Below are positions 12,986 through 64,000 of a stretch of DNA of 64,000 bases, one piece after another; position 1 is the stretch's first letter; the number at the start of each line of letters is the position of its first letter. Where the stretch lies: NCBI RefSeq assembly GCF_018350175.1, contig NC_058368.1, forward strand, positions 11,656,001 through 11,720,000, written 5' to 3'. A model generated the notes under the pieces. That model was given only the letters and a program-made list of their open reading frames with translations, ran no database searches and was not told the origin of the DNA. The translations under genes and the position numbers were made by a program. The DNA is from Felis catus (Eukaryota).

Positions 12986-12989
12986 TACC

Positions 12990-18757: not shown

Positions 18758-18770
18758 AAAATAAGATCTT

Positions 18771-18801
<31 letters not shown>

Positions 18802-23265: not shown

Positions 23266-23267
<2 letters not shown>

Positions 23268-23318
<51 letters not shown>

Positions 23319-31539: not shown

Positions 31540-31575
<36 letters not shown>

Positions 31576-39128: not shown

Positions 39129-39824
39129 AGGTACTAGTAAATTACATCTTAAAATATTACAAACTGCTTCTTACCTTCCAACATAAACCTTCTTCCCGTT
39201 TGTCTAATGAATCCTGTAACAACTCTAACTGTATTACAAAAATAGAAAGCTGACATACACTCAAACTGATGTTCCCATCTTGAATAATTCATTTCATAGA
39301 AGCCCAGGCTGCAATGAACTGTTTCACAGAATTACAGGTAAGCTAGTATCACACACCATTACATGAACATTATATAGAATGTCATGTATGAAAAACAAGG
39401 GGAAAATTGTCACCATGAAGACCAAGGTGGGATGGGGACAGAGCCTCACTACTTTTATTATGCTTGACATTAAAACAAACCAAAAAAATCTTTCTTTCTT
39501 CTTTTAAAGAAATATGTTTGCATGGTCTTGCCAATACACTGCTCTGTGAAACTAATCATACTAAATTTATCAGTAAACACGGGAATATCAAATTGATTGG
39601 ATCGTACCAACAGTCCACACAACACAGGTGAACCAATAGTGAACTGTAGGAGAAAAAGGCACATGCAGCAACATAAATTGTTTTGAGCTATTCTACAGCT
39701 TAACTCAAATGTCTTTGTTAAAGAAGAATATGAATATCTTTGACAAATTTAATAACTAGAACACCAAACTTTTCCTTCTAGGTATCTCTCAGCACTTCTA
39801 ACTGGTATAAAAATCCATTGGTTT

Positions 39825-40028
39825 GGAGGTGCCAGGGTGGCTCCGTTGGTTCAGCCTCCAACTCTTGATATCCATTCAGGTCATGATCTTGTGGTCAGGA
39901 AATCAAGCCGCACTTTGCACACTCAGTGTGGTGCCTGTTTGGGATTTTCTCTCCCTCTTTGCGCCTCCCTGGCTCTCACACGTGCACGCGCTCTCTCACT
40001 CAAAACAAATAAATATAAATTTTTAAAA
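39825..40028 (+). mobile_element. Can-SINE (diverged)
   Basis: ggtgccagggtggctccgttggtt head; caggtcatgatct motif. Confidence 0.85.
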
Positions 40029-40578
40029 AATCAATTTGTTTCCTTCTCTGCCTATTCCTAGTATATATCAAAAGAGATGAAATTATCAAAAGGCAAAACA
40101 AAATCATGGAATCTCAAGGCTAAAAGAGCTATTTCAGTTAAAATTCTAACATAGTCTTCTCATTTAATTCATCCAATAACCCTACATTATAGATTGGAAA
40201 GGTACTGTCCTTAAACTTACAAGGAAAAGTTTCAGAAAGTTAAGTGGCTTACCCAAGCTGCAGTCAGAACTGCAACTTATCTTCTAATTATGCAATTTTG
40301 AATTCTGTGCTCTACTACAAGTGGAGGTTTCCGTCCTTCACAACAGTCCCTAAGGCGCCTTGAAGGAACAGTCTGAAACACAGAACTCAATTATACTGTG
40401 AACACCTCCAGTGTCAGGCAATCCACTGTATACTTCTTAATGAAACCCACGCTATTTCCAAAAGAAGTCTTTGAATTAAAACTTAAGAACCAATGATCCA
40501 GTCAAGTATCCTTATTTTACACATGAAGGACGCAAAAGAGAGAAGGAAATGCCTCTCAGCTAGCTAGTGTAATAGCAG

Positions 40579-42905: not shown

Positions 42906-42919
42906 GGCTGACAACCACT

Positions 42920-44250
42920 CATATTCACTTATTTTATGAATACTGAATATCACTTTTTCCTAGCCACTGTGCTAGCTGATGACTATGTAATGGTAAGCAA
43001 AACAGATATAAAGACGCGCTCAAAATCTCTGATTTAAAAATAATGAGTGGAAACAATCATCTACTCATACAAATTGGTAAAGAAAAAGTACATGAGAACA
43101 TATAACATGTATTTTGGACCCCACCAAGCCTGCTATGTCCAAAATGGCTTCCTTGAAGAGCTCAAATCTGAAGGATGAGTATGGAGGGGGGGGGGGGTGT
43201 GCACACAGAACTCTCCAGGAAGGGAAACTGAACAGCACAGTCAAGGAACTGAGAGGTGGTCAGTAGGGCTGGAATACAGAAAGTAAGAAGAGTAATAAAA
43301 CATGAGGTTGGATAGGAAGGTAGGGGTCACATCACCCAGGGTCTTTAGCCTAACAGCAATGGAAAGCATCTGAAAAGTTTTACATGTGATTATATTTTCT
43401 TTTTACAAAGATCACTCAGGCAAGGTAGGTGCTGGTAATGTTCTATTTCTTGAGCAGAACTCTGGTTACATAGATATGTTCACTTTGTGAAATTTTGAGC
43501 TGTATGCTTATAATTTAAGTACTTTTCCATATGTCCATTATACTTTAGTCTGGTTAGACTGTGCAAAGAAAGGGTAGAACAGAGCAAGTACTGATGTGGG
43601 GACGCTAGTCTCAGTAAGAGATAAACCAGATGATAATTCAAACTAGAAAGATGGCAGTCAAAAATGGAGAGAGAGATTCAAAAGGTATTTTTTAAGTGAC
43701 AAAATCCACAGACCCTGGTTGATGAACTGAATATGAAGAGGGAAAGGAAGCATTAAAGAAGACTCCCAAGTTTCTGGCTTGCAGAAATGGATGGTAGATT
43801 GATTCACTATGCAAGGAAATCCTAGAAATCCAGAGATGGGAGAAAAGATCACTGCTCAATCTTTCAAGACGATCACTGCTCATCTTATTAGCAGAAATAT
43901 CAGGTAGGCAGTTAAGTAAACAGTCAAAGGACTCAAAGGACAGGTCTGTAGAAAATACACTTGGGGATCAATATTGTTAATACAGAAGCAGTGGGTACAC
44001 CATCCTTCAGCCAATATTTAACGAGCTCCTATAGTATTACAGGCACTGGTTTAGATTCTGTGGATATAGCTGTGGACAAAATAAACAAGTTCTCTTGGGA
44101 CTTACATTCTTGTTCAGGAAGACCCTCAACAAACCAGTACCAAATAAGGTAACTTCAATTACTAGTAAGTACCATGATGAAGACAAAACAGGACAATGTA
44201 ATAAGAGTGACAGGGATGGGGCTATTTCACATTAGATTGGAATAGTCAGG
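42920..44250 (-). mobile_element. Degraded L2 fragments
   Basis: aagaagactcccaagtttctggcttgc...ggatggtag and caaatatttaacgagctcctatagtattacaggcactg resemble reverse L2. Confidence 0.6.
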
Positions 44251-44675
44251 GAAAGTTTATATTAATTTTTTTTTGAATTATAGATTAGTTGCTCTGTTGA
44301 TAAAACTACAGGGCAGCGAAGAAAAAAGTGAGACTACTATGTCCAAGTAAGAAATGATGAAATCTCCTAGGGAAAGCGAAGAGTAAGAACAGAAGGTGGT
44401 CTAGAACTAAAACTGAAAAGAATTTGGAAAAATAAAAACCAAGAAAGGCAGCAAATGAGACCGAGAAGTATGCAGAGATAGGAACAAAAACCTCATCAGG
44501 GAAAAATATTTTAAGGAAAAAAGTGATCGAGTCAAATGCTTGCTGAGTCATCGTATGGGAACTGAAAAAGGCTCATCAACACAGAGGAACATTCTGGAAA
44601 CCTTAAAATCTAAAATGGTAGAGGAAGAAGCTAAAACGGGAATGGGCTGAATAGTATCAAACGCAGCTGAGGGGA

Positions 44676-44898
44676 GGGTGCCTGGGTGGCTCAATCGGTT
44701 AAGCATCGACTCTTGATTTCAGCTCAGGTCAGGGTCTCATGGCTCAGTGGTTCAGTTTGTGAGATCCAGCACCTTCTGCGGTCCTGCTCTGAGGCTAACA
44801 GCACAGAGTTGGCTTGGGGTTCTCTCTCTCTGCCCCTGCCCTCCCTGCTCACATGCTCACTGTCTCTCTCAGAATAAACAAACATTAAAAAAAAAAAA
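44676..44898 (+). mobile_element. Can-SINE
   Basis: gggtgcctgggtggctcaatcggttaagc head; A tail. Confidence 0.9.
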
Positions 44899-45293
44899 TG
44901 GTTGAAGGGAACATGACAATAGGTGTGCACAGTTCTTTAGAGGAGTCTGGCTATAAAGAAGTGGTGACAATAAAGAGGGGCTTTAAGAGATGAGACCTGA
45001 CCACGTCTGAATGTGGATTTAAGGAAAGAAAGCAAGATTGAAATTACAGAGAGAAGGAATAATTGTCAACATATAAAGATTCCTGAAAGTAGTTAAGAGA
45101 TGTAATCCAGACTACAGGTATACTTATTTACCTTAGATTGGAGGAGGGCTACCCTCTCCACTGAAATAGAAGAGAGAATGGAAGTAGAACTCAGACTGCC
45201 CGACTCTTGCAATGATGTGTTCTTTCCACTAAAATCATGCCATAAATATTCTGAAAAGTGTTCTAAGTAGGACAACAAACCAAAAAAAGAAAA

Positions 45294-45488
45294 GTTTTTT
45301 TTAATGTTTATTTATTTTTGAAGGTGGGGGAAGGAGGGAGACAACAGAGGATCTGAAGCAGGCTCTGTGCTGAGAGGAGAGAGAAGTGAGGTCCAAACAT
45401 GGGGCCCAAACTCACAAACTATGAGATCATGACCCGAGCCAAAATCAAGAGTCATAGGCTTAACTGACTGAGCCACTCAGGCGCCCCT
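45294..45488 (-). mobile_element. Can-SINE
   Basis: Reverse head gactgagccactcaggcgcccc. Confidence 0.88.
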
Positions 45489-46540
45489 GATTTTTTTTTT
45501 TTTCTAATTAGACTTAGGATCACAGTGCTTCAGAAGAAGGGCTCTGAAAAATGACTTTAGGACAAATACCTGAAGTATTTTTCACAGGTTGTCTAAGAAT
45601 TCTGCAAAGGGTTAAAGCAAAAAGCAAGAGAATAATCTCTAAATGACCCTAAAAGAAATGGATAATCAAAAGCCTCAAGGTTGCCTTATTTATCTGTATT
45701 CTAGGATTTAGTTTCTTGATCATAAATCACAAATCTAAAGACCACTGGTACAAAATCCAAAACAAAAGGCTCTGATGGCACCAGATGCACCAAGTGAAGT
45801 GGAAGAGGACTCCTCCCTGCTGGTCTGCACACTCTGGTCCTAGCAAGCAGCAAATCCAACTAATTCACACTCCAGCTCCAGGTTTCCTAAATTACAAACT
45901 ACCCTGTAAATTACTCTACTTAGACCAATGTGTCCTTGATATCAAAAGGTAGTTTTAGGAAGGATACTCAACAAATATTTTATTGACTCTTTTTAAAGGA
46001 CAAAGATCCAAAGACCCAGTAGTGACCAAAGATGACAAGGAAGACCCCGTTTCATGGCATTTAGGGTACAAGATCATCTTTCTTCATAGCTTGGGCTCTA
46101 TTGGTTCTTAAAAAGCAAAGGGAAGATAAGGAGGGAGAATACCACTTTGGACCACTAGCCTATCCTTCTAGCCTTAACAATTTCTTTCCTAGCATTCCCC
46201 AGAATTTTTTTTAAAAGCTGTTTTTTTTCTCATTAATTTTTAATGAAGTCAAAATGACTAGCCCAGGCCCCTACCACATTTCCTGTACATACTTCAATTT
46301 ACTTACATTTGAATTGAAATGTTTTAACTACATCTTTGCTAGTATTACATTGTACTATATTTCAATAACCTCAATTCCACAATATACTGCTTTCTAGGTC
46401 CTGAACTGAAAACTAATTTAATCTATTAATGAAATCAATGCTCTTCCTGTTTCCATGAAGTCTTTCTTGTTCTAACAAAACTTCTACCTCTGATAAAATA
46501 AAAAATAAACATATCACAATCTGAAGATTAAAAAAAACCA

Positions 46541-46760
46541 GGGGCGCCTGGGTGGCGCAGTCGGTTAAGCGTCCGACTTCAGCCAGGTCACGATCTCGCG
46601 GTCCGTGAGTTCGAGCCCCGCGTCAGGCTCTGGGCTGATGGCTCGGAGCCTGGAGCCTGTTTCTGATTCTGTGTCTCCCTCTCTCTCTGCCCCTCCCCCG
46701 TTCATGCTCTGTCCCAAAAATAAATAAAAAACGTTGAAAAAAAAATTAAAAAAAAAAAAG
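46541..46760 (+). mobile_element. Young felid Can-SINE
   Basis: CpG-intact body; TSD aaaaacca. Confidence 0.95.
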
Positions 46761-46799
46761 AAAAACCAAACAAGATCCAGTCCTTCTATTTAAGTTAAC

Positions 46800-49700
46800 T
46801 AAAACAAAATAAGGCAATAATCAAGTTAGAATTCTTCATTCCATACTTAAAGGTTTTCCTTGGAGAATCTAATTAACTCAAGATATTAGTTATATAGTAA
46901 ACTTAAGTAATTGCCTCTTCTACTGTTCTTTAATTTTGGAGAATTAAACAACACAGAAGAAAATGCTATTTCAAAAGACAGAAATGCTTAATTTTTCAGA
47001 AATTCAAAAAACTGATGTAATTGCCATAATATCTACTACTACAGCACACTCAGTAATAAGTGAACAGTTAAAGAAAAATCAATTAAGACCACTTACACAT
47101 AGTGTTGACCTTTTCTGGGAAACATTGCCTCAAACTTAATCAGTGTAACAAACAGCTTATGTAATTTAACAATCCATTTATTGAATACTACACACTTCAC
47201 AAGCTCATTGATATTAGAAATTAAATTTTAAGCATTAAAGCACAACAGCATATGTAAAAATTCAATTGCAAAGATGTTGCTGAAACATGATTATCAATTA
47301 TATCAATGTATATCTTATAGAAAATATTAAATACTAAATGGTATCTTACTTGTAATCTTGACTCTTAAAAATAGCACTGTAGATAAATGGCCACTTACAG
47401 GTTTCTTTACTCACTTTTGTTGATAAATCAACATACCTTCAATCCTACAAATTCAAAGGTACCATTAAAGATGTATTCAATGCTTCACCGGAATTTCTTT
47501 CCTACCTTAAAAAAAAAAAACCCTAAATTTATAATATTTTTTTAAAAGAAGGCTGTGTTTAAAAGATAAAATGGGATATAGTAAGGAATATGCCTGACCT
47601 AGATTTTGATCCCAGTTATCTCTCTCCCTAGGGAAATTATGTTGGCTAAGTTGCATAACCTCTGATAAGTTTTTGTTTCTTCTTCATAAAACCCTTGTAG
47701 GACTGTTATGAAAACTTGAGAGACTGTTAACAATCACATTTACAACACAGCCTGGCATTGACAGGCATTAAATAAATGGCAGCTGCTTAAATGAACATTA
47801 TATTAAGACTTATTGCTATTCAATTCCTGTTGTTCATTGTAGCAGCACTGCCCTATATGAAGATCCACTTGTAGAGGTCAAACTCAAAATACCTATCAAC
47901 TTTCCTTCGAAATCACTCAGTTCTTTAATAAAGGTGGACTGCAGAATCATGATGTAATAGTGAATTCTACAATACTGAATTCCCAACTACTACTTACCAA
48001 CAAGTCTATCATCATGATGCTTAAGTGTTATAAAATACTTTTTCTCAAATTCAAACATCCAAGTCCTATGCCATGTTTATGGGATTCTTAACCATGAGTA
48101 ACCATTGGTAGACTTTTACAAATCTTTCCAAGGATTTTCATATCTAAGTTCTAACTAAACACCAGGGTCAGGAAACTTAACTGCAAAGCTGTTGGTCTAT
48201 AAATATAACATGGTGAAGTAAGTTTCATAAGGAACAATGAGTTCAGTAAAACATAGGAGGGGAAAAAGTTACCTCCATTTTTGTCAGCCACTTACCATCC
48301 CATCATCTTCATTAAAAATGTTATGAAGTTACACAAGGATAGCTGAGCAGAAAATGGACAGAAAATGTGTATGGGAAAAGACTATGAAAGAAACAAGAAA
48401 CACAATTTCTAATACTAACAAGACAGAAAAAAAAAACAAAAAGAAAAAAGAATAAAGGCAGAGGAAAAACCCACAATCCCGTCCCAAAATCAAATTTCAT
48501 TTTGTTATATTAAGAAACTGAAGAGTTCAGAATTACAACTGAAGAGATAGTACGAAGTTGTACAACTGCAATAAATAGTTGTAGATGAACTACCCCAAAG
48601 CGCAAAGCTTTGGATTTATATGTCCTGAGAATGCAGTTAGAACTGCAAAACAAGAAAATAATCTACATAAAGTTATTTCAATGGACTCTACTGAACTTGC
48701 ATGCAATTTTAACCATGAATGAACAGATTATTCTTACTTTTTTCCTTTAGTCACTAATAAAGTTCAGAGGCAAAAAGCCCCTGTGTCATCTTAAAAATCT
48801 CTCAATCTTCCCATTAATTTACAAAAAGTTCAATTAAAAAAAAAAAAAAAAAAAACAAACACTGAAATATTTACAACTGGACAACACTCCCAGATAAAGT
48901 CTTCAGTTACTCACCAAAGCAGGTACAATGCTTCTTAATGTGACTGGGTCTAGTTCTAAGACTAGGAGTCAAACTATAACTGTGTCCATACTAAATAATC
49001 TATTTTATTCATACTTAAGACAGCCTACTGACATTAATGGGCTCTACACTGGGAAGTATATTATAGTATGTGATTACTGCAGTCATCACACCTGGAACAT
49101 GACACGGTTATCCAGAAAACAAAATTTGTTTGGAAAAAGTAGAAGATTATTTCTAATCTAAATCACTAAAATAAACTACTATTAAATGTATCAAGAAGTC
49201 AAAACTTTCCAATAGACACAGCCCTAGCTTGAGGTTCTTTCTTCAAAAAGTTATTTGGGCTACTCTTTCCCTTTGTTTCTGTGTGTACGGTGATAATGCA
49301 CTAAGAATTTCCACAGGAGATATATTAAAAATTCAGCTTACAAATGTATATTCTATTACAAAAATTATGTCCTTTACTATAGCCTAAATAAAGATAGTGA
49401 GGTAAATGACAGCCATTCTATTACAAGTTTTTGCAAAAATCATAATTATAAACATCTTAAGTCTTGCTCTGCAATTTATAAAACATGCAAAAAAATGAAA
49501 ATTTTTTAGACTCAGGACACTTAGCAGTTTGAATCAGCTGAACTGATTTAAATGTTTCTTTGCAATGTAAAAAAAAGGAATCAAAAGACACAGGAGAAAA
49601 TCAAGAGTCACTCCTCCTTGAAGACCTAGTTCAACAAACTTAATAGTACTTTTTACCATTCTAAGGCTATTTTAAGGAAAAATCTGATATACAAATAAGG

Positions 49701-52700
49701 AGGCCAATTAGTTTAACAGTAACCTTAATTTTAAAAATAAAATAAAAATTGGCATGCCAATTTTAATCAGTAAAGAGAAAGAAAACCATTACCAAAGAAG
49801 ATATTCATTAATCCCTTAATATAATCCCACCTTTCTCTGTAAATTCACAAGAATTACAGCTAACAATTTTAGTGAAAAAAAAACTTTTATTAACCTATAA
49901 AATTGATCTTCAAAAACCAGTAACTCAACCTGCTTTTTCTGCTACCACCAAATACTTATTCTGACTGATCATTGTAACAAAAGTAAACAATACTTTGTCA
50001 TGATTCTAGATTAAGGTGTTACTCTATGTATATGGGTTGCAAATGTTAAAAACATACACACACAAATCTTCAGCCCTAATAATGAATTCTCAGTGACTGC
50101 ATTCATGTTAGAATACTACATAAAACTTCAATGAAGACAACGAAACCATCCAGTCAAGGCACTAATGTATTAACAACATTTCTTCAACATTTTCTGAAGA
50201 GAACACCAGCAATTTTCTTTATAAATACTTAAAAAAAACTAGACTCAGAAAATCAGATATTTCTGCAATAACAAAAACTAGAATTTGGTCAAAACAAGTA
50301 TCTCACGTCCTTTGAAATCATGAATTCTTTCAAAACTTACCTATACATAAAACTAGAAAATTCCACAATCTATATTAGACAAGAAATCAGCAAACTTCAA
50401 ATACTTAAATCCACCCTATTGCTCCAACAGAACACAACCCAATCTTTTGTAAACAATCTTACTTTAAAACAGACATAAAATATAAAAAAGTTAACATTTC
50501 TTTTGAAAAGTGAACACTGAAAATAAAGATTACCTACCTAAAAAGCAGTACCAGAATTTTGACTGAATTACCACATAAGTATTTTTGTTAGCAGGATTAT
50601 GACATATAGAAAATTATAAATCTGCTTATTAAAAGGAAAAGCATTTTTACACCAAGCCTATGAAAAAACAAAGCTGCATTCTGTGTAACTAAATGTATTT
50701 TACCTTATTTAAATATGAGGACCAATGCCTCCTTTATTCTTTGGGATAGAGACCTACTACTCATAGCATAGCAACTGGGGGCTATTCCATTAAGAATATA
50801 ACTGAATTAAAAAAAAAAAATATCTGAATAGAAGAGAAATTTTGATGAAAATATTTAATCAGTAAATTTCATATTTTTATAGATTTTTAACATCAAAGCA
50901 ATGACTTCTAATAGTGACTACGGTATCTTTTATTGCATATTCATAGCTCGTTCTGTTATTGTTCAAATAATAAAAAAATTAGCCAGAATGCTAAGGGGGG
51001 AACTACTGATTTAATATGCTTAGTGGAACTATTAAATTAATTTTGTCTTTAAAAAAAAAAACAAAAAAACTTCAAAGTCTTTCAGAATTTAATTCTCCTG
51101 CCTCAATATGGATCTATAATTTAAAAAATCAGCAATGATTAATGATCTCTACATGATTATTTAAGTACTCAGAAGTACTAAAAGATGAAATTGATCCATT
51201 ATAAAATCTGGAAATTTATTTCAGGCTACTAACATGAACATACTTCCTTATAACAATAATCTTTCAAAGGCAATTCTCTAATTCCTTGAAAATGTGCTTA
51301 ACAGATATTAAGCATCTATTAATCAAAATCTATAGATTCACAGCACTATTCCTCTCAACAGTTTTATAAAGACAGAAGGAAAGGAACACATAGTATATAT
51401 ATCTAACAGATTTTTCATCTGTCCCCAAATTAAATTCTTCTGTACTATTCTCAAAATGTGCTAACTTACATGATAAATAAAATAATGGGAAACGCAAGCC
51501 CAAATACTAAGAAGTGTTACCCTTAAATAAAAAAAAATACGTGAAAATACTGGATGAAGAAAATGTGTATATATATAAATATATATACATTTACACACAA
51601 AACATGGGTTAGCATATTCCTACTATATCACATTTAGTTAAGATGAACAAATACATACAAACACACGTGTTAAACAAAATAGAGCAAGATAATATTCAAA
51701 TGTAAACAGCACTGAATAGTACAAATAAATAGAAATCATATTCTTATCTCACAAAGGGCAATGTAAAACAGACCTTGTTGAGAGTGCTATATTTAGTTTT
51801 GTGCCTTGCACTTAGTATTACTTAAAAAGTAATATATAGATGTGGGACAACATTTAAAGTAAAGTTGAAAAGAACAGCAAATGCTTTTAAACAACATATA
51901 AAGGCAGATTATTAGGTTCAGGATGGGCTGGTTTAGGAGTCAGTTAATGGACCATGAAATATTATGTAAAACATTTGAAGGATCAAAACATTATTTTTTA
52001 AAAAGCATGTAATTAGCTGGGGTTTTTTCCTAAAAAAAGAGCAAACCAAAGATTAGGATGAATTACAAAATCTCTGAAATGAATTCCATCTCAGGTTTTA
52101 AATTTTAAGTGACAGAACACAATCTAACAAAGAAAACTCTCCAGTGAGACATCTAGTTGGCCTACAGAAAAATTAAAACCAGAAGAAATAAAATATCCTA
52201 CAGGACAAATCTTCTCACAATTAATGCTAAGACCTGTCCAAAAAATTTTAATATTAGAATTACACTGTGTTAAATTAAATAGAGAAAAGTGATTTATTAT
52301 CAGAATAACCTGAAGAGCTTTTTCTAAATATACAGTGATTTCCCTATTTATCCACTCCAGAATTGGGGAGTGTGAAGGGGCAGGGCAATGGTTTGAGAAG
52401 AGTGATGAATATGTATATGATATATTATGAATATGTACATTGTGGAGAAAACCACCCAGGTGGTTGACATACCTACTGCTATATAGTATTTAATGGAGAA
52501 TTTAAGCAATATGCTCTAATTAGCTTATAAATATTTTTGTCACACAGACGAATCTGCAGAAACATAATTTTACCTGTGTACTGAATAGGGGAATCAACTG
52601 AGGTGCCTATAAAAAGTTAGTATTTCTTACATATTTAAATGTAGGAAAGGTAGTTAAGAAAAATTACTAGCATTTTATGCAAAGTTAGATTTAGATATGA

Positions 52701-53022
52701 GCTATAAAACTGTTCAACATTATCTACAAAATAGCTAAAATTAGTTTAAAATTCAGTTGTAGAAAAACCATTCTAGGTCCTACCCACACTACTCAGATAT
52801 TTTCATAATAACCAAGGGAATTACAACAAAAAAACTATAAAAACATTTAAAAAACCATTTTATATAATTTTTATTTACACCTTAGGATTTAAACAACTTG
52901 CTGGGAACATCCCTTGTGGGACAACGTAGTCTTTTTTTATTTGAAACTATTTAAACTTCAAGATAGGCTCACTAATTTTTTTCAAGGGCAAGCAACAAAT
53001 GTGTTAGCTGAAAATAGCCAAC
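46800..53022 (-). other. N4BP2L2: Probable long 3' UTR region of the short isoform (3' end not defined)
   Basis: Directly follows the TAA. AT-rich and free of recognisable Can-SINE/L1 for about 6 kb. Several minus-strand AATAAA (tttatt on +, e.g. ~52293, ~51215, ~50929, ~50733, ~47177). Confidence 0.5.
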
Positions 53023-53224
53023 TTAATGATTATTTGTAACACAGACTTGATTAGGTGAGCCTAGAGATCCTCCCCACCTCTGTCTCCCCTGTGAAGGAGG
53101 AGGTCTTTGTGTGCTTTTGTGTGGCGGTTCCACTGAATTCATTACAATAGAGATGGACATTTCGTATTCGTAACGATCCAACATCTGAGCAATCTTCTTT
53201 CGAGATACACCATGTTTATTCCTC
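53023..53224 (-). CDS. N4BP2L2: N4BP2L2 composite exon: terminal CDS of the short isoform (TAA at 53023-53025); 53078-53224 serves as an internal exon of the long isoform
   Basis: Acceptor ttctttttggtag. Encodes RNKHGVSRKKIAQMLDRYEYEMSISIVMNSVEPPHKSTQRPPPSQGRQRWGGSLGSPNQVCVTNNH*. Internal donor CAGAG|gtgggg at 53078/53077 is phase-compatible with the acceptor at 7612. Confidence 0.93.
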
Positions 53225-54803
53225 CTACCAAAAAAGAAAAGGATTTAATTCTTTAGGGTAACAAAGTAAAGATTCTAAATTATATTTTACAAATAAACAC
53301 TAAAAGATATACCTCATTCACACACATTTTGGACAAAAAAAATTTATACTGGCTCTCAAAAATTTTAACAATATTTTAAAAATACTGAAAGACACCATAA
53401 ATCACAACAAAATGTTAAAAGATAGTATCTTCTTCACACAGAACTAACTACCAATTTGCTGAACCATGGAGTTAATCTCCCCCTGGCTTCTAATAACAAA
53501 TCAAAGATTATAAGACAGTGTTTTGGGAATTATAGAGGAATTGAGTGGACTTCTAGGACTTACAAAAGTCATATGAATATTTATCACTTTTTAAGTTATT
53601 TTAGGACACTTCCTACTGTATTTTTAGAATTTATTATCAACACCAAATTATTATTAGAGATAAAACAACTTGGACGTATTTTACAAAACAAAATGTTGAG
53701 TGACAGAAATTAGACACAATGAATATACATTGTATTTTATTTATATAAAATTTGAAAAAAGCATTAAACCATGGTGTTAGGCAAAAGATGTTTTAGAAAA
53801 AGATGCATTAAAAAAAAAAAGAAAAGAATAAGATGCATTAAAGAAAGGGAAGTAATTACCAGGAAATTGTTACTAGGAAAAGGAATTGGAAGAACTTTTG
53901 AGGTGTTAATAATATTCTTATAATGTGGCTAAGGTTAAATGAATATTTACCTCACAGGAAATTTGTTAAGTTGTATATTTACATTTTACATAATTTTGTG
54001 AGTTTAATTACGACAACAAAAAGTGGTTTAAAAATTACTCTTGACCCTCAAAAAACTTTTAACATTTTACCCTTGTAGTTTTCTGTAACTTGACTTGGAT
54101 ATGGCAAAACACACAAGAATATATTTTACATTTAAGATTATAGTTCTAGATTTACTAATGTTAATTAATTTTTCTCAGAAAAGGGACACAAAGGAAATGT
54201 TTATGCTTTAAAACTATTGCTATTATGGTCAAGATGAGAAGAGAAAGCAAAAAGGACTAGAAGACAAAAAAAAGGGCCAGGGGAAGGATGAGGTTGAAAT
54301 GGCAAGATATAACTAAATCCACAAGATGTCAGAATTGGTAATTCAATCAACTTACCAAAAAAAATCTGTCAAACTATACTAGACATCAATTAAGCTCACT
54401 TTATTTTATAAAGTCAATTATATTAAGAATTCTAATAAATTTCAACAGTCCCTCAAATGTTAATGAAGCCTAACTGTATTTGTATTTCATCAATTCTTTT
54501 ATTCTGCATAACCCAAACAGCTTTAGTTCTTAAACTTGTCTCTTCTACTTGAGGTGAAATATACACAGAGAAGCAAGCAAACAATACTGAATATTAATAA
54601 ATCTATCAGTTTTATCTACATATGATCACAGTATGCAAATCAGAAAGGGAAAGGGGTAACCAAATGAATAAAAGGTAAGGGGAAAAGAAATTAGTTGAAC
54701 ATCATACAGAATAATAGCGTTAAGCTGGAAGAGGGCAAGCTGAAGTGGGGGAAAAAAAACTGGTTTTTAAAAAGGAAGCGATGGCTGCACAACTCTGAAT
54801 ATA

Positions 54804-55125
54804 CAGTTGACCCTTGAACAACACAGGTTTGAATTGTGCAGATCCACGTACATATGGCTTTTCAGTAAATACAGTGCAGTACTGTAAGTGTACTTTCTCT
54901 TCCTTATGACTTTCTTAGTAACACTTTAATATATATAACATACAAAATAGGTGTTAATTAGGTGTTTATGTTACCGGTAAGGCAGCAGGCTATAAGTAGT
55001 TTGGGGGGGCGGGGGGGGAATCAAAAGTCATTATCAAAAATGGAATCAAAATTCCATTATCTGTGGATTTTCAACTACACCAGGGGTCAGCACCTCTATC
55101 CCTTTCATTGTTCAAGAGTCCACTG
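54804..55125. mobile_element. Tigger2-like non-autonomous DNA transposon nested in an L1 3'-end fragment
   Basis: TIRs cagttgacccttgaacaa / ttgttcaagagtccactg (2 mismatches), preceded by TA. Flanks rejoin as L1M 3' sequence. Confidence 0.85.
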
Positions 55126-55309
55126 CACTGAGAACCATGAATTGTACACTTTTAATATGTAAATTGTAAGGTATGTGAATTATATTTCGAAGTTGTTACC
55201 AAAAGCAGAGAGAGGAAATAAAAAACAAAGAAAGAAAAAGAGTCATAGGAAAACCAGTGACATGAGGGGAGAGAGATTAAGGTAAACACAAATGGAAGGC
55301 CAGGGTTGA

Positions 55310-55656
55310 AATCCACAATCCCTCACCACAAATTTTGAAACTGACAATGCTCTGAAAACTCAGTCTTATGTTGACTCAGATGGCAGCAAAATCTAATCAA
55401 ACCTGTACTCATCTGGCAGTACAACAAACATTAGATTATGCAGAACCTTTCTTATCTAATTACAGGACTAGTCATGATTTGCCACAGAAAAATTAAGATC
55501 TGTGATTATGACATGCTGCCCCAAACTCTGCTAAGCGTATGATGATTGCATATACGCACTGTATCACCTTTCTTGAAAAAACAAACAAAAATAACCAAAA
55601 CCTGAATTCTAAAACATACTGATTACAAGGACCTTGGTTATAGGATTATGAATCTG
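55310..55656. mobile_element. Tigger4/MER46-like fossil
   Basis: tccacaatccct...gctctgaaaac start; ataggattatgaatctg|ta end. Confidence 0.5.
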
Positions 55657-56099
55657 TAGTAGTAAAGATGGAAAAGAGAGAGCAAGCCGAAAACCCCAGG
55701 TAAAAAGGTGATGGGAGCTAAAATGGGAAGAGAAGTCTGAAGGGTAGTGCAGATAAGCGGCCTCACTAAACACCAGAGGAAAAGTTCTAACTTTTTCTTG
55801 AAAGTATTCTGGATCTCCACTAGCATTCAATAAACTATGAAACAGTGGTAGGAATTCACATAAGAAAAAGTAACACACTTAACAAGGCAAATTTAATAAA
55901 ATCTACCAAGGGAAGGTGCCCCAAGAAGCCTTGAAGTCAATGCTTCTCTTAACAGAAAGTGAGTAGTCCCTATTCACAAGCAGCAAACATAAGACAAGCA
56001 AAAGCTAGTGAAGCAATTGTGTAAAGAAGAAAGAAAAAAGAGAAAGATTCAAAAAATGTTTTCAAAGATAAGGATTCAAAAACAATTTGAGTGCCTTAC

Positions 56100-56176
56100 T
56101 TTTCTAATTCTTCAGGATCAAATTTCCACCAAGTTTCAGGTTCATGAAACTCTACTCTGTATCCTTTTCCTATGGC
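56100..56176 (-). CDS. N4BP2L2: N4BP2L2 coding exon, 77 nt
   Basis: Acceptor ttcctttgtgtag, donor AA|gtaagg. Encodes AIGKGYRVEFHEPETWWKFDPEELE(K). Phase 0 to 2. Confidence 0.95.
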
Positions 56177-56567
56177 CTACACAAAGGAAAGGAAGAAAAC
56201 AAAAACCCAGAGAATACTTCTTAAAGTAAAAAAGAAGGCAGATAATTAGGAGTTTCATTTAGACAATACTTCTAAATTTGCTCTACCAAGAAAAATTCTA
56301 CTTTTAAATAACATGGTCTATAAATATACTAAGACAACTTAACTGGACAATTTCAAATTACTATCCTCAAGTCCAGGCAAAACTAACAAGATGAACATAT
56401 TTCTTTATAAGTACTATTCCCAGGTTTTAAAAACTAAGTAAATGAATACACCTCTTTATAAAATAGGGACAAATGTGTATATAATACATATCAAAGCAAC
56501 CAAAATTTCAGAATATGAAAAAACTGACAGGATAAAATATTAAAATTCTCTCATATCTTATATTTAC

Positions 56568-56656
56568 CATTTCCACATATGGTTTCATTTCCCAAGCTTG
56601 TGTATTAGTGTTGTCTATTATAACTGGAGATCTCCCTTGATTGATAGCTTGTTTTG
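56568..56656 (-). CDS. N4BP2L2: N4BP2L2 coding exon, 89 nt
   Basis: Acceptor ttttatttcag, donor ATG|gtaaat. Encodes (A)[29 protein letters not shown] with the family IIDNTN motif. In frame with both neighbours; absent from the ORF track. Confidence 0.95.
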
Positions 56657-57271
56657 CTGAAATAAAAAATAAATTTAAAAAACAAAAACAAAAACCAGAG
56701 AACTATTAGGTTAAAATATACAAAATAAAATGTAAACATTCATATTAAGAAATTTTCTATATCTCTGTACTTAAAACTAAAATTATGCAACCTCCTGAGT
56801 CAGTGCCATGAAAAAAAAGGACTCCACATTTATTAAAAGGGAATTGAGAGACATAACCACGGACAATGTGTATTCTCTAGACTGGATACTGGTTTTGACA
56901 AACTAACGGTAAAGAACATTTGGGGGAAACATTTTGTTGAACTTACAGATAAGGAAGCCTTCAGTCTAGAGCTAACTTTCATGTAGAGGAAACACTGAAT
57001 ACAGTCTGACTATGAAAAGAGGTGAACATTTACTGACATGGCAAGATGAAAACTGGTAACTAAAAATGGCAAATTATAACATAATATGTAAGTATGACTT
57101 TATTTTGGTCAAAATACAGAGATCCTGGGAGAGTTACTAAATATCAAAAGTGGGCATCTGAGGATAACGGGAATATAAGCAATATATGCTTACCTTTATC
57201 TGTATTTCCCAGTGTTCTATAATTACAAATAATACCTTTGAAATAAGAAACTTAGGGTTTTGTTTTTGGGG

Positions 57272-57498
57272 TTTTTTTAATTTTTTTTTCAACTTTTTTT
57301 TTTATTTATTTTTGGGACAGAGAGAGACAGAGCATGAACGGGGGAGGGGCAGAGAGAGAGGGAGACACAGAATCGGAAACAGGCTCCAGGCTCTGAGCCA
57401 TCAGCCCAGAGCCTGACGCAGGGCTTGAACTCACGGACCGCCAGATCGTGACCTGGCTGAAGTCGGACGCCTAACCGACTGCGCCACCCAGGCGCCCC
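57272..57498 (-). mobile_element. Young felid Can-SINE
   Basis: Reverse head aaccgactgcgccacccaggcgcccc. Confidence 0.95.
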
Positions 57499-57657
57499 TG
57501 TTTTTTTTTTTTTTTAAAGAATGCTATGGATATATTATTACTTGCCAGCAAAACTTTATATACCAAGTAGCTAAATACCAGTTAACTGACTTTGTAAATA
57601 TTTCTTAGGACTAGAATTCTCGAATTAGGAGCTGAGATCACATGGAACTTTTCTAAA

Positions 57658-57888
57658 AAAAAAAAAAAAAAAATTTTTTTTTTTCCAACGTTTATTTATT
57701 TTTGGGACAGAGAGAGACAGAGCATGAACGGGGGAGGGGCAGAGAAAGAGGGAGACACAGAATCGGAAACAGGCTCCAGGCTCTGAGCCATCAGCCCAGA
57801 GCCTGACGCGGGGCTCGAACTCACGGACCGCGAGATCGTGACCTGGCTGAAGTCGGGCGCTCAACCGACTGCGCCACCCAGGCGCCCC
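57658..57888 (-). mobile_element. Young felid Can-SINE
   Basis: TSD cacatggaacttttctaaa. Confidence 0.95.
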
Positions 57889-58716
57889 CACATGGAACTT
57901 TTCTAAACTACATCTCCCCATCCCTTTGCCATCTCTTCCCCATGAGGTAAGAATCACAGCCACAGTGAGCCACTGTTAATGACAAGAGTGTGCATACCCC
58001 AAGTGTAAACAGACAAGAAACGTAATTAAGAACCTACAATAAAATTTAAAAGGCTGAGGCAAAAGGCAGTGGTATGGAAGTTTTGTTGGTGCTTAGAATT
58101 CAAAACATTAAGTTCTACATGATGAAAACATTTATACAGATGTCTAAGGACAAACAATTCCAAAGGTTAAGTAGTAATGACTGTCGTGGAATACATATTT
58201 GGAAGATGTCTCTAACTAACAAAAGAAATTTTGAATTTGGGTCATAAATAGCCTACCAAAATGCTATCATCTCCCATTGCTCTATCCCGAATCATAAACA
58301 GTGATCAAATCTTTCATTAAAAAAAAAAAAAAACTTACTAATTATCTTAAATGTCTAATAGTAAGGCTATCACCTCCAAGGAGTTACATTCCAGAAGAGG
58401 AACTTAATAACCAAATTAAATCTCTGATTTCAAGAATGGGAAGATTATCCTCTTTCAATGAAAAGGCATCATGTAATACCACATTTCAGTACACCCCAGG
58501 AAAAAAGTTCCTAAGTAAACAATGTTTGAATACCCAAATAATGAGAGTCATTTCTTAAACAAAATAACCACCATATTTTAAGAAACAGTAATGACACCTT
58601 GGAGACGTTTTTAATTTACAGACAATCTAACATGAATTTAGAGTCTTCTAATAACACACACATGAAGCAGACAGATATTCCCAGAATGGTACCTGGCATT
58701 TAAAAGTATTCAATAA

Positions 58717-59154
58717 GGGGGTGCCTGGGTGGCTCAGTCGGTTAAGGGTCTGACTCTTAACTTCAGCTCAGGTCATGATTTCATGGTTCATGGACTTGGG
58801 CCCCACACTGGGCTCTGTGCTACAGTGCTACAGCATAGAGCCTGCTTGGGATTCTCTCTCCCTCTCTCTCTGCCCCTCCCACCTCTCTTTCTCTCTCAAA
58901 ATGAATAAACATTAAAAAAAAAAAAAGTATTCAATAGGGGTGCCTGGGTGGCTCAGTCAGTTAACCCTTCGGCTCAGGCCATGATCTCATGAGCCCCGCG
59001 TGAGCCCCGCATCAGGCTCTCTGTGCACAGCCTGCTTCAGATTCTCTGTCTCTGTCTCTCTCTCTCTGCCCCTTCCCCATACATGCACAGGCTCTCAGTC
59101 AGTGTTCTCACTCCTTGCTAAGTGCCTGGAGCCTGCTTGTGATTCATTCATTCA

Positions 59155-59252
<98 letters not shown>

Positions 59253-59268
59253 TAAACTTAAAAAAATA
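58717..59268 (+). mobile_element. Two tandem Can-SINEs (58717-58922, 58937-59268); the second is rearranged and carries (ttca)n(ct)n(ca)n
   Basis: Two heads; target aaaagtattcaata present three times (third copy has one mismatch). Confidence 0.9.
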
Positions 59269-60302
59269 AAAATATTCAATAAACATCTGTTAAAAAGAGA
59301 AATTTAGTCCTAAGTTAAGTCATGACTGTTAGTTATCATTACCTTGAAAACATTTATGTTATACTGATAATAAAACCAGCACTTTATCTAAGCACTATTC
59401 TTTGTTCAGCAAGTATAACTCACATGACATAAACATTTTAATGTAATATTCTAGACCAGTACTACAAAGAGAAAAAGATGTTCCACACAAATTTCACAGT
59501 CCACCAAAGGTATACTGGCTTCATTAAAGAAAATGTTTCAGTAAGGAAACAATTCACTATTGGATAAAACCATTAGATATAAGGTTGATGGAGAACTTGA
59601 TTATGGAGTAGACTGCCCTTTTGAAGCTACTAATCAATCTTAGCATCACTAAAATTGGGACAACTAGACATATGGTTACATACATACATACATACATACA
59701 TAAACCTAACAAATCCTCCTGTCTAGAACTAACCTCTATTTAAATACAGGAGAAAGAACAGGTTAAATAGTTACCACAAGGAAGCAGACAACTACAAAAT
59801 ATGGGACATTCTGTAGAACAAATAACCAAGCTCTACAACAAATTAATGTTATGAAGACAAAAAGAAGGGATAAAAGAGGATACAGATTAACATAATTAAA
59901 TGAAACATAAAACCAAATGTATTGCGAGGAACTAGCTTGTACCCTGATTCAAAGAGAACAACCGTAAAGAAATACTTACGACAACAGGGAAAATTTCATT
60001 ACAGGGTGAGTATTACATGATGTCAAGAAATTGTTTTTTTAAGTGTGATGATGGCATTGCAATTAAGTAAGATGCCATTAAGAAAAAGTTAATTTGAAGT
60101 GCATAAAATATGATATCTGCAATATACTTTAAAAACCTTAGCAAATAAAAGTTGGTGGGGGGGGGGGTGGGTAAAACAAAAAGGATAAAGCCAATAAAGG
60201 CAAAATCTCAATAACTAATAATAATTCTGAGTGATGGATGTATGGTGTTCATTGTAATCTCTCTACTCTAGGCTTAAATTTTTCATAATAAAAAACAATT
60301 TG

Positions 60303-60500
60303 TGGGGCACCTGGGTGCTCAACCAGTTGAGTGTCGGACCCTTGATTTTGGCTCAGGTCATGAATTCATGGTTCATGCGACGGAACTTTGCATCAGGCTC
60401 CATGCTGACAGTGTGGAGCCTGCTTGGGATTTTCTCTCTCTTTCTCTCTCTTCCCCTCCCTCTCCTGCTCACTCTCTCTAAATAAACTTAAAAAAAATAA
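60303..60500 (+). mobile_element. Can-SINE
   Basis: ggggcacctgggtgctcaaccag head. Confidence 0.88.
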
Positions 60501-60783
60501 AAATAGAAATAATGTTGAATCATCAATGCATTCTTCATCTTTTTAAAAAGAAATTAACTTATAACGTAAGCACTTACTAGTTCTAGATCAAAAGTTTTCA
60601 ATCTTGACTGCAACATCAGTCAAGTTGACTGCAACATCTGATGACTGCAACATCAGACAACTTTCTAGTTATCTGGTATCTAGCATCGGGATACCAGTGC
60701 TCAGATCCACTCCAGGCCAACTAAACCACAATCTGTGGAGCTAACATTAACTTACAAGTTTTTTTTTTTTTAAGTCCCCAGGA

Positions 60784-60990
60784 GGGGTGCCTGGGTGGCT
60801 CAGTCAGTTAAGCTTCTGACTCTTGATTTTGGCTCAGGTTCATGGGATCAAGCCCCTCTTCGAGCTCTGTACGGATAGTGCACAGCCTGCTTGGGATTCT
60901 CTCTCTCCCTCTCCATCTGCCCACCCTCTCCCCCAGCTCACATGTGCACACACATTCCCTCTCTCTCTCAAGATAAACTTTACAAATAAA
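60784..60990 (+). mobile_element. Can-SINE
   Basis: ggggtgcctgggtggctcagtcagttaagc head. Confidence 0.9.
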
Positions 60991-61508
60991 AATATGTGTG
61001 CCTATGTTATGAACCACCAATCTAGAAAGAGAAAAAACTGACTCATGTGCTTCTAAAAAATGTATTAAGTAGATTTTTTTTTGTAGAATAATGTCAATGT
61101 GAAAAACTTTTAATATTCAAAGGTATTATATGAAGACTTAACATTACCATTATTCATAGAAAAATACTTTTTGGGAATATACAACAGTTTCAAGAGTTCT
61201 TTGAAATTTATTCCTTAGGTATAAAATAAAGGTTATCAAAATAACCCGCATCTCTATTTTGCCAGCCTATACTGGTACACTATTTACAGTTTACAAAATA
61301 TACCTTTCTAAATTCTCTAATTTCTTAACAACCTTGATCAAGTAAGGCAAATATAACTATCATTGCCTTTAACAGATGAAAAAATTGGGTCTCGAAGCTA
61401 TTTAATGGCTTGCCAAAGTCATTCTGCTGGTAAAAGTCAAGTTGAGAATAAAAACTCAGTCTTCTCCTAGTCAAATATTCCATCCCAAAGACGTGGCCCA
61501 AAACAAAC

Positions 61509-61633
61509 CTCTGTTCTGGTTCCAGTCATGGGCATCACCAAGTTGATTAACATTATACCTGTACCCATCTTGATGGTGAAAATAGTCATCAGTGCTGAAC
61601 ACAATGCCATCACGACTCTGACCAAGCAGAATT
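61509..61633 (-). CDS. N4BP2L2: N4BP2L2 coding exon, 125 nt (P-loop kinase-like domain)
   Basis: Acceptor ttcttttattaacag, donor AG|gtttgt. Encodes (R)ILLGQSRDGIVFSTDDYFHHQDGYRYNVNQLGDAHDWNQNR, matching the recalled N4BP2L2 segment just after Walker A. Phase 2 to 1. Confidence 0.95.
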
Positions 61634-62634: not shown

Positions 62635-64000
62635 CAGGCATACCTCAGAGATATTGCAGGTTCAGTTCTACACCACAATAAAGGAAGTCAAATTAATTTT
62701 TTGGTTTCCCAGGGCATATAAAAGTTATTACTAAAAAAACAATACATATATATATACATATATATATACCTTAATTCAAAAATATTTTATTGCTAAAAAA
62801 TGCTAACCATCATCTGAGCTTTCAGTGAGTTGTAATCTTTTTTGCTGGTGGAGGGTCTTGCCTCAATCTTGATAGCTGCTACTGATCAGGATGGTGGTGG
62901 CTGAAGGCTGAGTGGCTGTGGCAATTCTCTAAAACTGGACAATTTTGTATTGTATCGACTCTTCCTTTTGTAAACAATTTCTCTGTAACGTGATGCTGTT
63001 TGATAGCATTTTACTCACAACAGAACTTCTGTGAAAATCAGATTTAATCCACTCAAAACCTGCCACTGCTTTAACAATTAAGTTTATGGAATATTCTAAA
63101 TCTTTTGTTGTCATTTCAACAATGTTCACAGCATCTTCACTAATGGACTTCATCTTAACAAACCACTTTCTTTGCTGTCCATAATAAGAAACACCTCATC
63201 TGTTAAAGTTTTATCATGAGATTGCAGCAATTCAATTACATCTTCAGGCTCCACTTCTCATTCTCTTGCTCTTTCTACCACATCTGCAGTTGACTTCTCC
63301 ACTGAAGTCTTAAATCCAAAGTTATCCATGAGGGTTGGAATCAACTTCTAAATTCCTCTTCATATAGATATTTTGACCCCATGAATCATGAATATTCTTA
63401 AGGGCATCTAGAATGGTGAATCCTTTCCAGGAGGTTTTCAATTTACTTTCAACTTACTTTGATCAAAGAATCACTATTTTTGGCAACTACAGCCTTACAA
63501 GATGTATTTCTTTTTTTTTTTTTTTCAACGTTTTTATTTATTTTGGGGACAGAGAGAGACAGAGCATGAACGGGGGAGGGGCAGAGAGAGAGGGAGACAC
63601 AGAATCGGAAACAGGCTCCAGGCTCTGAGCCATCAGCCCAGAGCCTGACGCGGGGCTCGAACTCACGGACCGCGAGATCGTGACTTGGCTGAAGTCGGAC
63701 GCTTAACCGACTGCGCCACCCAGGCGCCCCTGTATTTCTTAATAATAAGACTTGAAAGTCAAAATTACTCCTTGATTCACAGGCTGAAGGATGAATGTTG
63801 TGGTAGCAGGCATGAAAACAACATTAATCCTATTCTACATCTCCACTAAAGCTCTTGGGTAACCAGGTATACAGTCAGTGAGCAGTAATAATTTCAAAAG
63901 AATCTTTGTTTCTGAGCCATAGATCTCAACAGTGGGCTTCTAATATTCAGTAAACCATGTTGTAAACAAACATGCTGTCATCCATGCTGTCTGCTCAGGC
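62635..64000 (-). mobile_element. Tigger1 DNA transposon (3' part, decayed transposase), continues beyond the window
   Basis: Terminus caggcatacctcagagatattgcaggtt; ORF 62929-63153 gives [29 protein letters not shown], resembling the Tigger1 transposase C-terminus. Confidence 0.9.
63513..63730 (-). mobile_element. Young felid Can-SINE inserted in Tigger1
   Basis: TSD tgtatttctt; CpG-intact body. Confidence 0.95.

What the first reader, a model, noticed from the sequence alone, without database searches (positions are those of the whole stretch)
53078..61633. Four exons would back-splice into a 438-nt circle with an endless, stop-free ORF
Seen: exon lengths 125+89+77+147 = 438 nt = 146 codons. 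The block starts and ends in phase 2, so joining the donor at 53078 (CAG AG) to the acceptor at 61633 (A ATT CTG) makes AGA and re-enters the native frame with no stop. The frame has five AUGs, one in good context (GAA AUG GCC, across the 56568/56176 junction). It covers the kinase-like domain without Walker A. Established, from memory: a circN4BP2L2 is reported in human; its exon content needs checking. Inference: a candidate template for rolling-circle translation of a repeating, P-loop-less domain. Caveat: phase-symmetric coding blocks give this property automatically, so it need not be selected.
Basis: partly seen in the sequence, partly recalled or inferred. Interest (0 to 1): 0.7.

Follow-up and report, generated by a model that had tools for sequence, protein, structure and literature searches.

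The report
Cat ortholog of known circN4BP2L2
Four coding exons of a cat-family N4BP2L2 gene are the same exons that form a well-studied human and mouse circular RNA, and their endless circular reading frame follows from the exon lengths rather than showing a new translated product.

Summary
On the minus strand, exons 61633-61509, 56656-56568, 56176-56100 and 53224-53078 measure 125+89+77+147 = 438 nt. All have AG/GT borders. The circularised native frame has 0 stops and 5 ATGs.

The gene is N4BP2L2. The block encodes the AAA_33 kinase-like domain without its Walker A.

The predicted back-splice is the ortholog of human circN4BP2L2 (hsa_circ_0000471, "exons 3-6"). That circle was Sanger-validated, RNase R-resistant, cytoplasmic and AGO2-associated, and has a listed mouse counterpart. 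Published human primers and junction-targeting oligos map onto these cat exons.

The endless frame follows automatically from two phase-2 borders. Three of the 10 contiguous blocks of these exons are 3n. About 14% of human circRNAs have such frames.

It also depends on splice choice. A conserved internal donor at 61559 gives a 388-nt circle with a finite 163-aa ORF.

No felid RNA could be examined. I found no paper linking this circle to translation.

Verdict: a real but ordinary feature of a known circRNA; translation is untested.

The parts
61509..61633 (-). Exon A (125 nt; human 'exon 3' by inference). Its AG acceptor lies at 61635-61634. It begins with the third base of a codon (phase-2 border).
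   Evidence: The human primer CATCAGTGCTGAACACAATG maps at 61587-61606 with 0 mismatches.
61559..61633 (-). Short form of exon A (75 nt), ending at the internal donor CAG|GTATAA after 61559.
   Evidence: exact motif, followed by GT. The reverse primer for hsa_circ_0000471 in PMC10075099 spans this donor joined to the start of exon B. Eight annotated 138-145-aa isoforms use this junction. Its consensus match is 6/9, the same as the full-length donor.
61608..61610 (-). ATG (context gtcgtgATGg) in the +1 frame of exon A. It is the start of the annotated P-loop-less 138-aa isoforms. It opens a 163-aa ORF in the 388-nt circle and only a 46-aa ORF in the 438-nt circle.
56568..56656 (-). Exon B (89 nt). 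It holds the VIIDNTN stretch of the AAA_33 domain.
   Evidence: Pfam AAA_33 matches weakly on this exon alone (E 0.0015, 19.3 bits, below the 27-bit cut-off).
56100..56176 (-). Exon C (77 nt).
   Evidence: Human sequencing primers map at 56157-56176 and 56124-56143 with 0 mismatches.
53078..53224 (-). Exon D (147 nt), with donor GAG|GTGGGG after 53078. It ends after the second base of a codon (phase-2 border).
   Evidence: Long isoforms stop matching the read-through query exactly here (74% cover = 49 of 66 aa). Human primers map at 53093-53113, 53121-53140 and 53194-53214.
53023..53077 (-). Read-through extension of exon D, which ends the short (~570-590 aa) isoform. The stop TAA is at 53025-53023. 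The nearest AATAAA signals start at 52941 and 52875.
   Evidence: sequence. (short isoforms cover 100% of the read-through translation). (poly(A) signal scan).
7613..53077 (-). Downstream flanking intron of 45,465 nt. It joins donor 53078 to the large long-isoform exon that starts at 7612.
   Evidence: tblastn of P0031. (acceptor TATTTCAG|A at 7614-7613).
63558..63740 (.). Carnivore SINE arm in the upstream flanking intron, about 1.9 kb 5' of the exon A acceptor.
   Evidence: pair I2: 183 nt, 97% complementary to 46531-46713. (SINE head at 63702-63725, minus strand).
46531..46713 (.). Inverted SINE arm in the downstream flanking intron, about 6.4 kb 3' of donor 53078.
   Evidence: pairs I1-I3. 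(duplexfold about -410 kcal/mol with the upstream arm).
57326..57888 (.). Two SINE copies inside intron A-B (57326-57509 and 57716-57888). They pair equally well with the downstream arm and would favour a B-C-D circle of 313 nt, which is not 3n.
   Evidence: pairs I1 (184 nt, 96%) and I3 (173 nt, 97%). (BCD = 313 nt).

Best explanation
The four exons are the internal coding exons of N4BP2L2 called 'exons 3-6' in human. They encode residues 420-565 of the felid long isoform, which is the AAA_33 kinase-like domain minus its first strand and P-loop. In human these same exons back-splice, joining the exon D donor to the exon A acceptor, to give the abundant cytoplasmic circRNA circN4BP2L2 (hsa_circ_0000471). 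A mouse counterpart is listed. The cat-family locus keeps the same splice sites and junction bases. It also has a very long downstream intron and inverted SINEs in both flanking introns. The circle is therefore most likely made here too (inferred, not shown). The endless reading frame is an arithmetic by-product: both flanking introns are phase 2, so the block is 3n and the protein frame closes on itself through an AGA codon. There is no sign that this was selected or that it is used. The roles reported for the human circle are non-coding (AGO2 association and a proposed miRNA sponge). The endless frame exists only when the full 125-nt form of exon A is included.
For: Shown. Exon anatomy and frame. 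Gene identity: 226 proteins at E<=0.001 among 234 candidates, with the listed names being N4BP2L2. Exon map against a Panthera uncia isoform. Domain limits. Human circle identity: 'backsplicing of exons 3-6' (PMC13612239, passages); coordinates; Sanger-reconstructed sequence, RNase R resistance and cytoplasmic location. All 8 published human primers tested map to cat exons A, C or D in the divergent orientation, with 0-2 mismatches. A ninth oligo's half-site maps at the internal donor. The human junction-targeting oligo contains the end of cat exon D followed by the start of cat exon A. Mouse counterpart mmu_circ_0012369 was assayed by qRT-PCR (PMC12540953, passage). By-product argument: 3 of 10 contiguous blocks are 3n, and 14% of full-length human circRNAs carry host-frame rolling ORFs (PMC9242994, passages). 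In-frame indels cannot break 3n, so conservation of the property says nothing about selection (inference). Permissive biogenesis features: the 45,465-nt downstream intron and an inverted SINE pair of 183 nt at 97%.
Against: No felid RNA was examined, so the circle is not shown in this species. The human and mouse circles both come from one superorder, so they do not bracket carnivores. The SINE pairing is not specific. There are 24 SINE heads in 64 kb, and two internal copies pair equally well with the downstream arm. Against 'by-product only': the human circle is abundant and cytoplasmic, which translation requires. Fan et al. report that rolling ORFs are over-represented among circRNAs with junction peptides. 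The junction is flanked by arginines, so ordinary tryptic proteomics cannot see it. The absence of N4BP2L2 from their peptide table is therefore uninformative.
Confidence: 0.78

Rival explanations
1. The 438-nt circle is translated cap-independently from one of its five in-frame AUGs. With no stop codon, ribosomes go round repeatedly and make concatemers of a 146-aa (about 17.2 kDa) P-loop-less kinase-like unit with some cellular effect.
For: The stop-free 3n frame and 5 in-frame ATGs are real. The unit mass is 17.2 kDa. The human ortholog is abundant and cytoplasmic. Rolling translation of endogenous circRNAs has been demonstrated for circPSAP, circPFAS and circABHD12 with reporters (PMC9242994).
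Against: No paper found links this circle to translation. N4BP2L2 + rolling gave 3 papers; in the 2 I read the co-occurrence is incidental. N4BP2L2 + circRNA + Ribo-seq gave 0 papers. circN4BP2L2 + open reading frame gave 14 papers; I opened 2 (PMC12540953; PMC9727202), and neither links the two terms. Nine of the 14 ATGs are out of frame with short ORFs. The unit lacks the first strand and the P-loop of its fold, so concatemers would probably misfold and be degraded, as Fan et al. saw for two of three cases. The frame is lost if the 75-nt form of exon A is used.
Confidence: 0.07
2. The circle is made mainly with the 75-nt form of exon A, giving 388 nt. It then has no endless frame. Instead, the conserved ATG at 61610-61608 opens a finite 163-aa ORF that runs 1.27 turns. 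Its first 121 residues follow the annotated 138-aa P-loop-less isoform, and a 42-residue tail is created by crossing the junction.
For: The internal donor is followed by GT and matches the consensus as well as the outer donor (6/9 each). Eight annotated isoforms from placentals to a monotreme use exactly this ATG and junction. The published reverse primer for hsa_circ_0000471 spans the short-A/B junction (PMC10075099, primer table; mapped). ORF arithmetic.
Against: A primer design shows only what sequence its authors assumed. The accessible text does not report whether the assay worked. The main coding isoforms include the full 125-nt exon. The T-ALL paper gives no exon lengths.
Confidence: 0.2
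3. No such circle is made in felids. Back-splicing at this locus depends on lineage-specific repeats (Alu or B1) in primates and rodents, and in carnivores the four exons are used only in linear mRNAs.
For: No felid RNA evidence was obtained. The competing internal SINE pairs could divert pairing.
Against: The splice sites and junction bases are conserved. The downstream intron is very long. Eleven plus-strand SINE heads in the downstream intron are inverted relative to the one upstream SINE. The circle is present in two mammalian orders.
Confidence: 0.1

Closest known systems
Human circN4BP2L2 (hsa_circ_0000471; hg19 chr13:33091994-33101669; 'exons 3-6')
   Same: Same host gene and same four exons. 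The same 11+11 bases flank the junction. The genomic span is similar (9,676 bp in human, 8,556 bp here). The encoded block has the same length: 146 aa in human P0002, inferred from domain offsets.
   Different: The cat circle is predicted only. The flanking repeats are carnivore SINEs, not Alu. Human studies treat the circle as non-coding (biomarker, AGO2-associated, miRNA sponge). None that I read discusses its reading frame.
Mouse circN4bp2l2 (mmu_circ_0012369)
   Same: PMC12540953 lists it as the conserved counterpart of hsa_circ_0000471 and assays it by qRT-PCR in heart.
   Different: I did not see its exon content or sequence.
Endogenous rolling-circle ORF circRNAs (circPSAP, circPFAS, circABHD12; Fan et al. 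2022, PMC9242994). Also circEGFR (recalled from memory) and circRUNX2.2 (title seen in the listing).
   Same: A 3n exonic circle in the host frame with no stop codon and internal ATGs.
   Different: Those have junction peptides and/or tagged-reporter ladders. This circle has no translation evidence at all. Its junction cannot be seen in tryptic digests. Its endless frame depends on an alternative donor choice.
Annotated 138-139-aa P-loop-less N4BP2L2 isoforms (for example P0003, P0012, P0017)
   Same: They cover exons B-D in the native frame and also lack Walker A. They start at the ATG in exon A that would also open the ORF of the 388-nt circle.
   Different: They are linear-mRNA products ending in the read-through tail of exon D, not circle products.

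Membership tests
Ortholog of circN4BP2L2 / hsa_circ_0000471 | Host gene is N4BP2L2 | tested here: met
   named hits; the felid long isoform is 100% identical over exon D; exon map.
Ortholog of circN4BP2L2 / hsa_circ_0000471 | Same exons are included (human exons 3-6) | tested here: met
   Human divergent and sequencing primers map to cat exons A, C and D, and one spans the start of exon B. Which form of exon A is included (125 or 75 nt) remains unresolved.
Ortholog of circN4BP2L2 / hsa_circ_0000471 | Same back-splice junction sequence | tested here: met
   The human junction-targeting oligo holds the last 11 bases of cat exon D followed by the first 11 of cat exon A. This is a match at DNA level only.
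Ortholog of circN4BP2L2 / hsa_circ_0000471 | Back-splice reads or an RNase R-resistant product in this species | not testable with these tools
   No RNA holder was listed.
Rolling-circle-translated circRNA (rcORF class) | Circle length divisible by three, with no stop in one frame | tested here: met
   The 438-nt form has 0 stops in the native frame. This is not met by the 388-nt form.
Rolling-circle-translated circRNA (rcORF class) | In-frame start codon | tested here: met
   5 of 14 ATGs are in frame; one has -3 purine and +4 G.
Rolling-circle-translated circRNA (rcORF class) | Evidence of translation (junction peptide, junction footprints, concatemer ladder) | not testable with these tools
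   None was found in the literature searched. N4BP2L2 and its coordinates do not occur in the 7 readable supplement files of Fan et al. (file 8 had no readable text; one further large file could not be read).
Rolling-circle-translated circRNA (rcORF class) | Cap-independent initiation element (IRES-like or m6A) | not tested
   No tool here scores such elements.
AAA_33 P-loop kinase-like domain (the block as an intact domain) | Walker A / P-loop present | tested here: not met
   AAA_33 spans 403-535 of P0031 and Walker A is at 408-415. The block starts at 420.

The most novel reading that the evidence does not exclude
circN4BP2L2 is a conserved, translated circle whose coding output is switched by the alternative donor inside exon A. 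The 125-nt form gives an endless frame that makes repeats of a P-loop-less kinase-like unit. The 75-nt form gives a finite 163-aa protein from the same ATG that the annotated 138-aa isoform uses. On this reading, some phenotypes ascribed to miRNA sponging in human cells are in fact protein-mediated.
Probability: 0.05. Interest if true: 0.6.

Novelty: already known. Interest (0 to 1): 0.2.

Why it matters
As it stands it matters little. The molecule is the carnivore counterpart of one of the better-known human circRNAs. A stop-free circular frame is expected for about a third of internal coding-exon blocks.

Two points could be useful to people working on circN4BP2L2. First, none of the papers I read on the human circle considers that it carries an endless host-frame ORF, or that arginines on both sides of the junction hide any product from tryptic proteomics. 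Second, the conserved internal donor in exon 3 changes the circle's length class from 438 to 388 nt. Primer designs and ORF predictions therefore depend on which form is present.

Tried and rejected
RNA evidence in felids. The look-up of sequencing runs listed 24 runs, and no holder is on record as RNA. No statement about expression can be made.

Proteins assembled from public runs. None of the 120 proteins stored carries a D-to-A junction motif. This is uninformative, because only the best 120 of 226 hits were stored and circle-derived contigs may not have been called as genes.

Fan et al. supplements. N4BP2L2 and five coordinate strings (two from the papers, three recalled) have 0 occurrences in the 7 files that could be read. 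File 8 had no readable text, and one large xlsx was not readable.

Literature searches. circN4BP2L2 gave 106 papers. A six-term search on N4BP2L2 plus rolling and translation terms listed 25 papers, none with N4BP2L2. N4BP2L2 + rolling gave 3 papers; I read 2, both incidental, and did not open the third (PMC12510048). Adding Ribo-seq gave 0. Adding polysom gave 2; one used the circle only as a reference in polysome profiling and gives no numbers in the text. circN4BP2L2 + open reading frame gave 14, of which I opened 2 (PMC12540953; PMC9727202). N4BP2L2 + circRNAs + pig gave 5, none about a pig circle judging by title. 'circAtlas 3.0' + cat gave no catalogue paper.

Other checks. Rfam over the whole window gave 0 matches at gathering score. 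Earlier findings of this scan gave nothing. Per-exon Pfam gave only a sub-threshold AAA_33 hit on exon B.

Considered and dropped. I do not count the inverted SINE pair as evidence of selection for circularisation, because at 24 SINE heads per 64 kb an inverted pair is expected by chance.


Full report
**Observation.** The gene runs on the minus strand. Reading and computing, the four exons are:
- A: 61633-61509 (125 nt)
- B: 56656-56568 (89 nt)
- C: 56176-56100 (77 nt)
- D: 53224-53078 (147 nt)

Each is preceded by AG and followed by GT, and they total 438 nt. Exon A begins with the third base of a codon and exon D ends after the second base, so both flanking introns are phase 2. Joining D to A gives AG+A = AGA.

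Read as a circle, the native frame has 0 stops in 146 codons. The other two frames have 13 and 8 stops. The circle holds 14 ATGs, of which 5 lie in the endless frame. One of these, across the B/C junction, has a purine at -3 and G at +4.

**What the exons are.** I translated exon D together with its read-through and searched the protein collection. That gave 226 proteins at E<=0.001 among 234 candidates, and the names listed are NEDD4-binding protein 2-like 2.

The hits fall into two isoform classes:
- Short forms of about 570-590 aa cover the whole read-through tail. That tail ends at the TAA at 53025-53023, with AATAAA signals 84 and 150 nt further on.
- Long forms of about 1,186 aa match only as far as base 53078.

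tblastn with the Panthera uncia long isoform (P0031) maps to exons A-D and then directly to a large exon at 7614-5764. That exon's acceptor places its first base at 7612. Donor 53078 is therefore a genuine splice donor, and the intron after it is 45,465 nt long.

P0031 is the closest stored relative of the large exon (93.4% over 621 aligned positions). Hyena and meerkat follow at 83-84%. The window therefore comes from a felid, but the species is not determined.

Pfam places AAA_33 at residues 403-535 of P0031 (E 2.3e-17). Walker A sits at 408-415 and the four-exon block covers 420-565. The exon carrying Walker A lies beyond the window.

**The circle is already known in human and mouse.**
- A 2026 Leukemia paper (PMC13612239; passages and supplement read) describes circN4BP2L2 as generated by "backsplicing of exons 3-6", at hg38 13:32517856-32527532. 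Sanger sequencing was used to reconstruct the full circRNA sequences and validate the junctions of the candidate set. circN4BP2L2 also shows RNase R resistance, a mainly cytoplasmic location and enrichment in AGO2 immunoprecipitates.
- PMC10075099 gives hg19 chr13:33091994-33101669 for hsa_circ_0000471, with thousands of junction reads.
- The human span is 9,676 bp; the cat span is 8,556 bp.

I mapped the published human oligos onto the window.
- Forward primers fall in exon D facing the donor: 53093-53113 and 53194-53214, 1 mismatch each, and 53121-53140, 2 mismatches.
- Reverse primers fall in exon A facing the acceptor: 61559-61579 and 61587-61606, 0 mismatches.
- Two sequencing primers fall in exon C with 0 mismatches.
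- The junction-targeting shRNA oligo in the Leukemia supplement contains the last 11 bases of cat exon D directly followed by the first 11 bases of cat exon A (compared).

PMC12540953 lists a mouse counterpart (mmu_circ_0012369) and reports qRT-PCR of it in mouse heart.

**Is the circle made in this animal?** This is inferred, not shown. In favour:
- The splice sites and junction bases are conserved.
- The downstream intron is very long.
- An inverted SINE pair flanks the block: 63558-63740 in the upstream intron and 46531-46713 in the downstream intron, 183 nt and 97% complementary, with a duplex energy of about -410 kcal/mol.

The SINE pair is permissive rather than evidential. The window holds 24 SINE heads. 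Eleven plus-strand copies in the downstream intron are inverted relative to the single upstream copy. Two copies inside intron A-B pair with the downstream arm just as well (pairs I1 and I3), which would favour a 313-nt B-C-D circle.

I could not look at felid RNA. The run search listed no holder on record as RNA.

**Is the endless frame more than chance?** No. A coding frame has no stops by definition. The only free conditions are that the block is 3n and that the junction codon is not a stop.
- Of the 10 contiguous blocks these four exons can form, 3 are 3n: D, ABC and ABCD. That is the expected one third.
- Fan et al. (PMC9242994, passages) found that 14% of full-length human circRNAs carry a host-frame rolling ORF.
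- In-frame indels keep a block 3n. Conservation of the property across species would therefore follow from protein constraint alone (inference).

Exon A has an internal donor after 61559 (CAG|GTATAA). It matches the donor consensus as well as the outer donor does, 6 of 9 positions each.

This donor is in real use. Eight of the 12 stored proteins under 200 aa, from cattle, bats, manatee, shrew, rodents and echidna, share one structure. They begin at the ATG at 61610-61608 in the +1 frame of exon A. They read 17 codons to this donor. They then continue in the native frame of exon B. The 50-nt deletion restores the frame.

The reverse primer published for hsa_circ_0000471 in PMC10075099 spans exactly this short-A/B junction. 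The accessible text does not say whether that assay worked.

With the 75-nt form the circle is 388 nt, which is 3n+1, and has no endless frame. Instead that same ATG opens a finite 163-aa ORF covering 1.27 turns. It has 121 residues before the junction and a 42-residue tail after it. In the 438-nt circle that ATG gives only 46 aa. Which form the circle contains is not stated in any text I read.

**Translation.** I found no evidence for it in any species.
- The searches are listed under Tried and rejected. None of the papers I opened links circN4BP2L2 to an ORF, ribosome profiling or rolling translation.
- One paper used the circle only as a reference RNA in polysome gradients and gives no values in the text.
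- N4BP2L2 is absent from the junction-peptide table of Fan et al.. That absence is uninformative. The residue before the block in the linear protein and the residue at the junction are both arginine. A tryptic digest therefore yields the same peptide from the circle and from the mRNA.
- A unit lacking the first strand and the P-loop of a P-loop fold is unlikely to fold (inference). Fan et al. saw proteasomal loss of two of three rolling products.

**Verdict.** The sequence observation is confirmed. The feature is the carnivore ortholog of a known circRNA. Its endless frame is an expected by-product that also depends on an alternative splice choice. The rolling-translation idea remains an untested possibility of low probability.

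Noticed in passing
window 61559-61633 (minus strand): The first 75 nt of exon A are read in two frames. One is the native kinase-domain frame. The other is a +1 frame that starts at the ATG at 61610-61608 and supplies the 17-residue N-terminus of annotated 138-145-aa P-loop-less isoforms in 8 mammals, including a monotreme. The internal donor at 61559 restores the native frame in exon B.
   Followed up: partly
window 7612-5764 and 3167-3268 (minus strand): The long-isoform part of N4BP2L2. A coding exon of about 1.8 kb is joined directly to donor 53078. A probable last coding exon lies at 3268-3167 (88% to residues 1146-1179 of P0031). Pfam DUF7818 matches residues 1124-1163 of P0031.
   Followed up: partly
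window 53023-53077 and 52875-52941 (minus strand): The short isoform ends by reading through donor 53078 to a TAA, with two AATAAA signals within 150 nt. Back-splicing and long-isoform splicing therefore compete with intronic polyadenylation at this exon.
   Followed up: no
whole window: There are 24 carnivore SINE heads in 64 kb, 15 on the plus strand and 9 on the minus strand. Several are young copies 96-97% alike (46530-46713, 57326-57509, 57716-57888, 63558-63740).
   Followed up: partly
window 59160-59250: A compound microsatellite, (TC)22 followed by (CA)24, lies in intron A-B.
   Followed up: no
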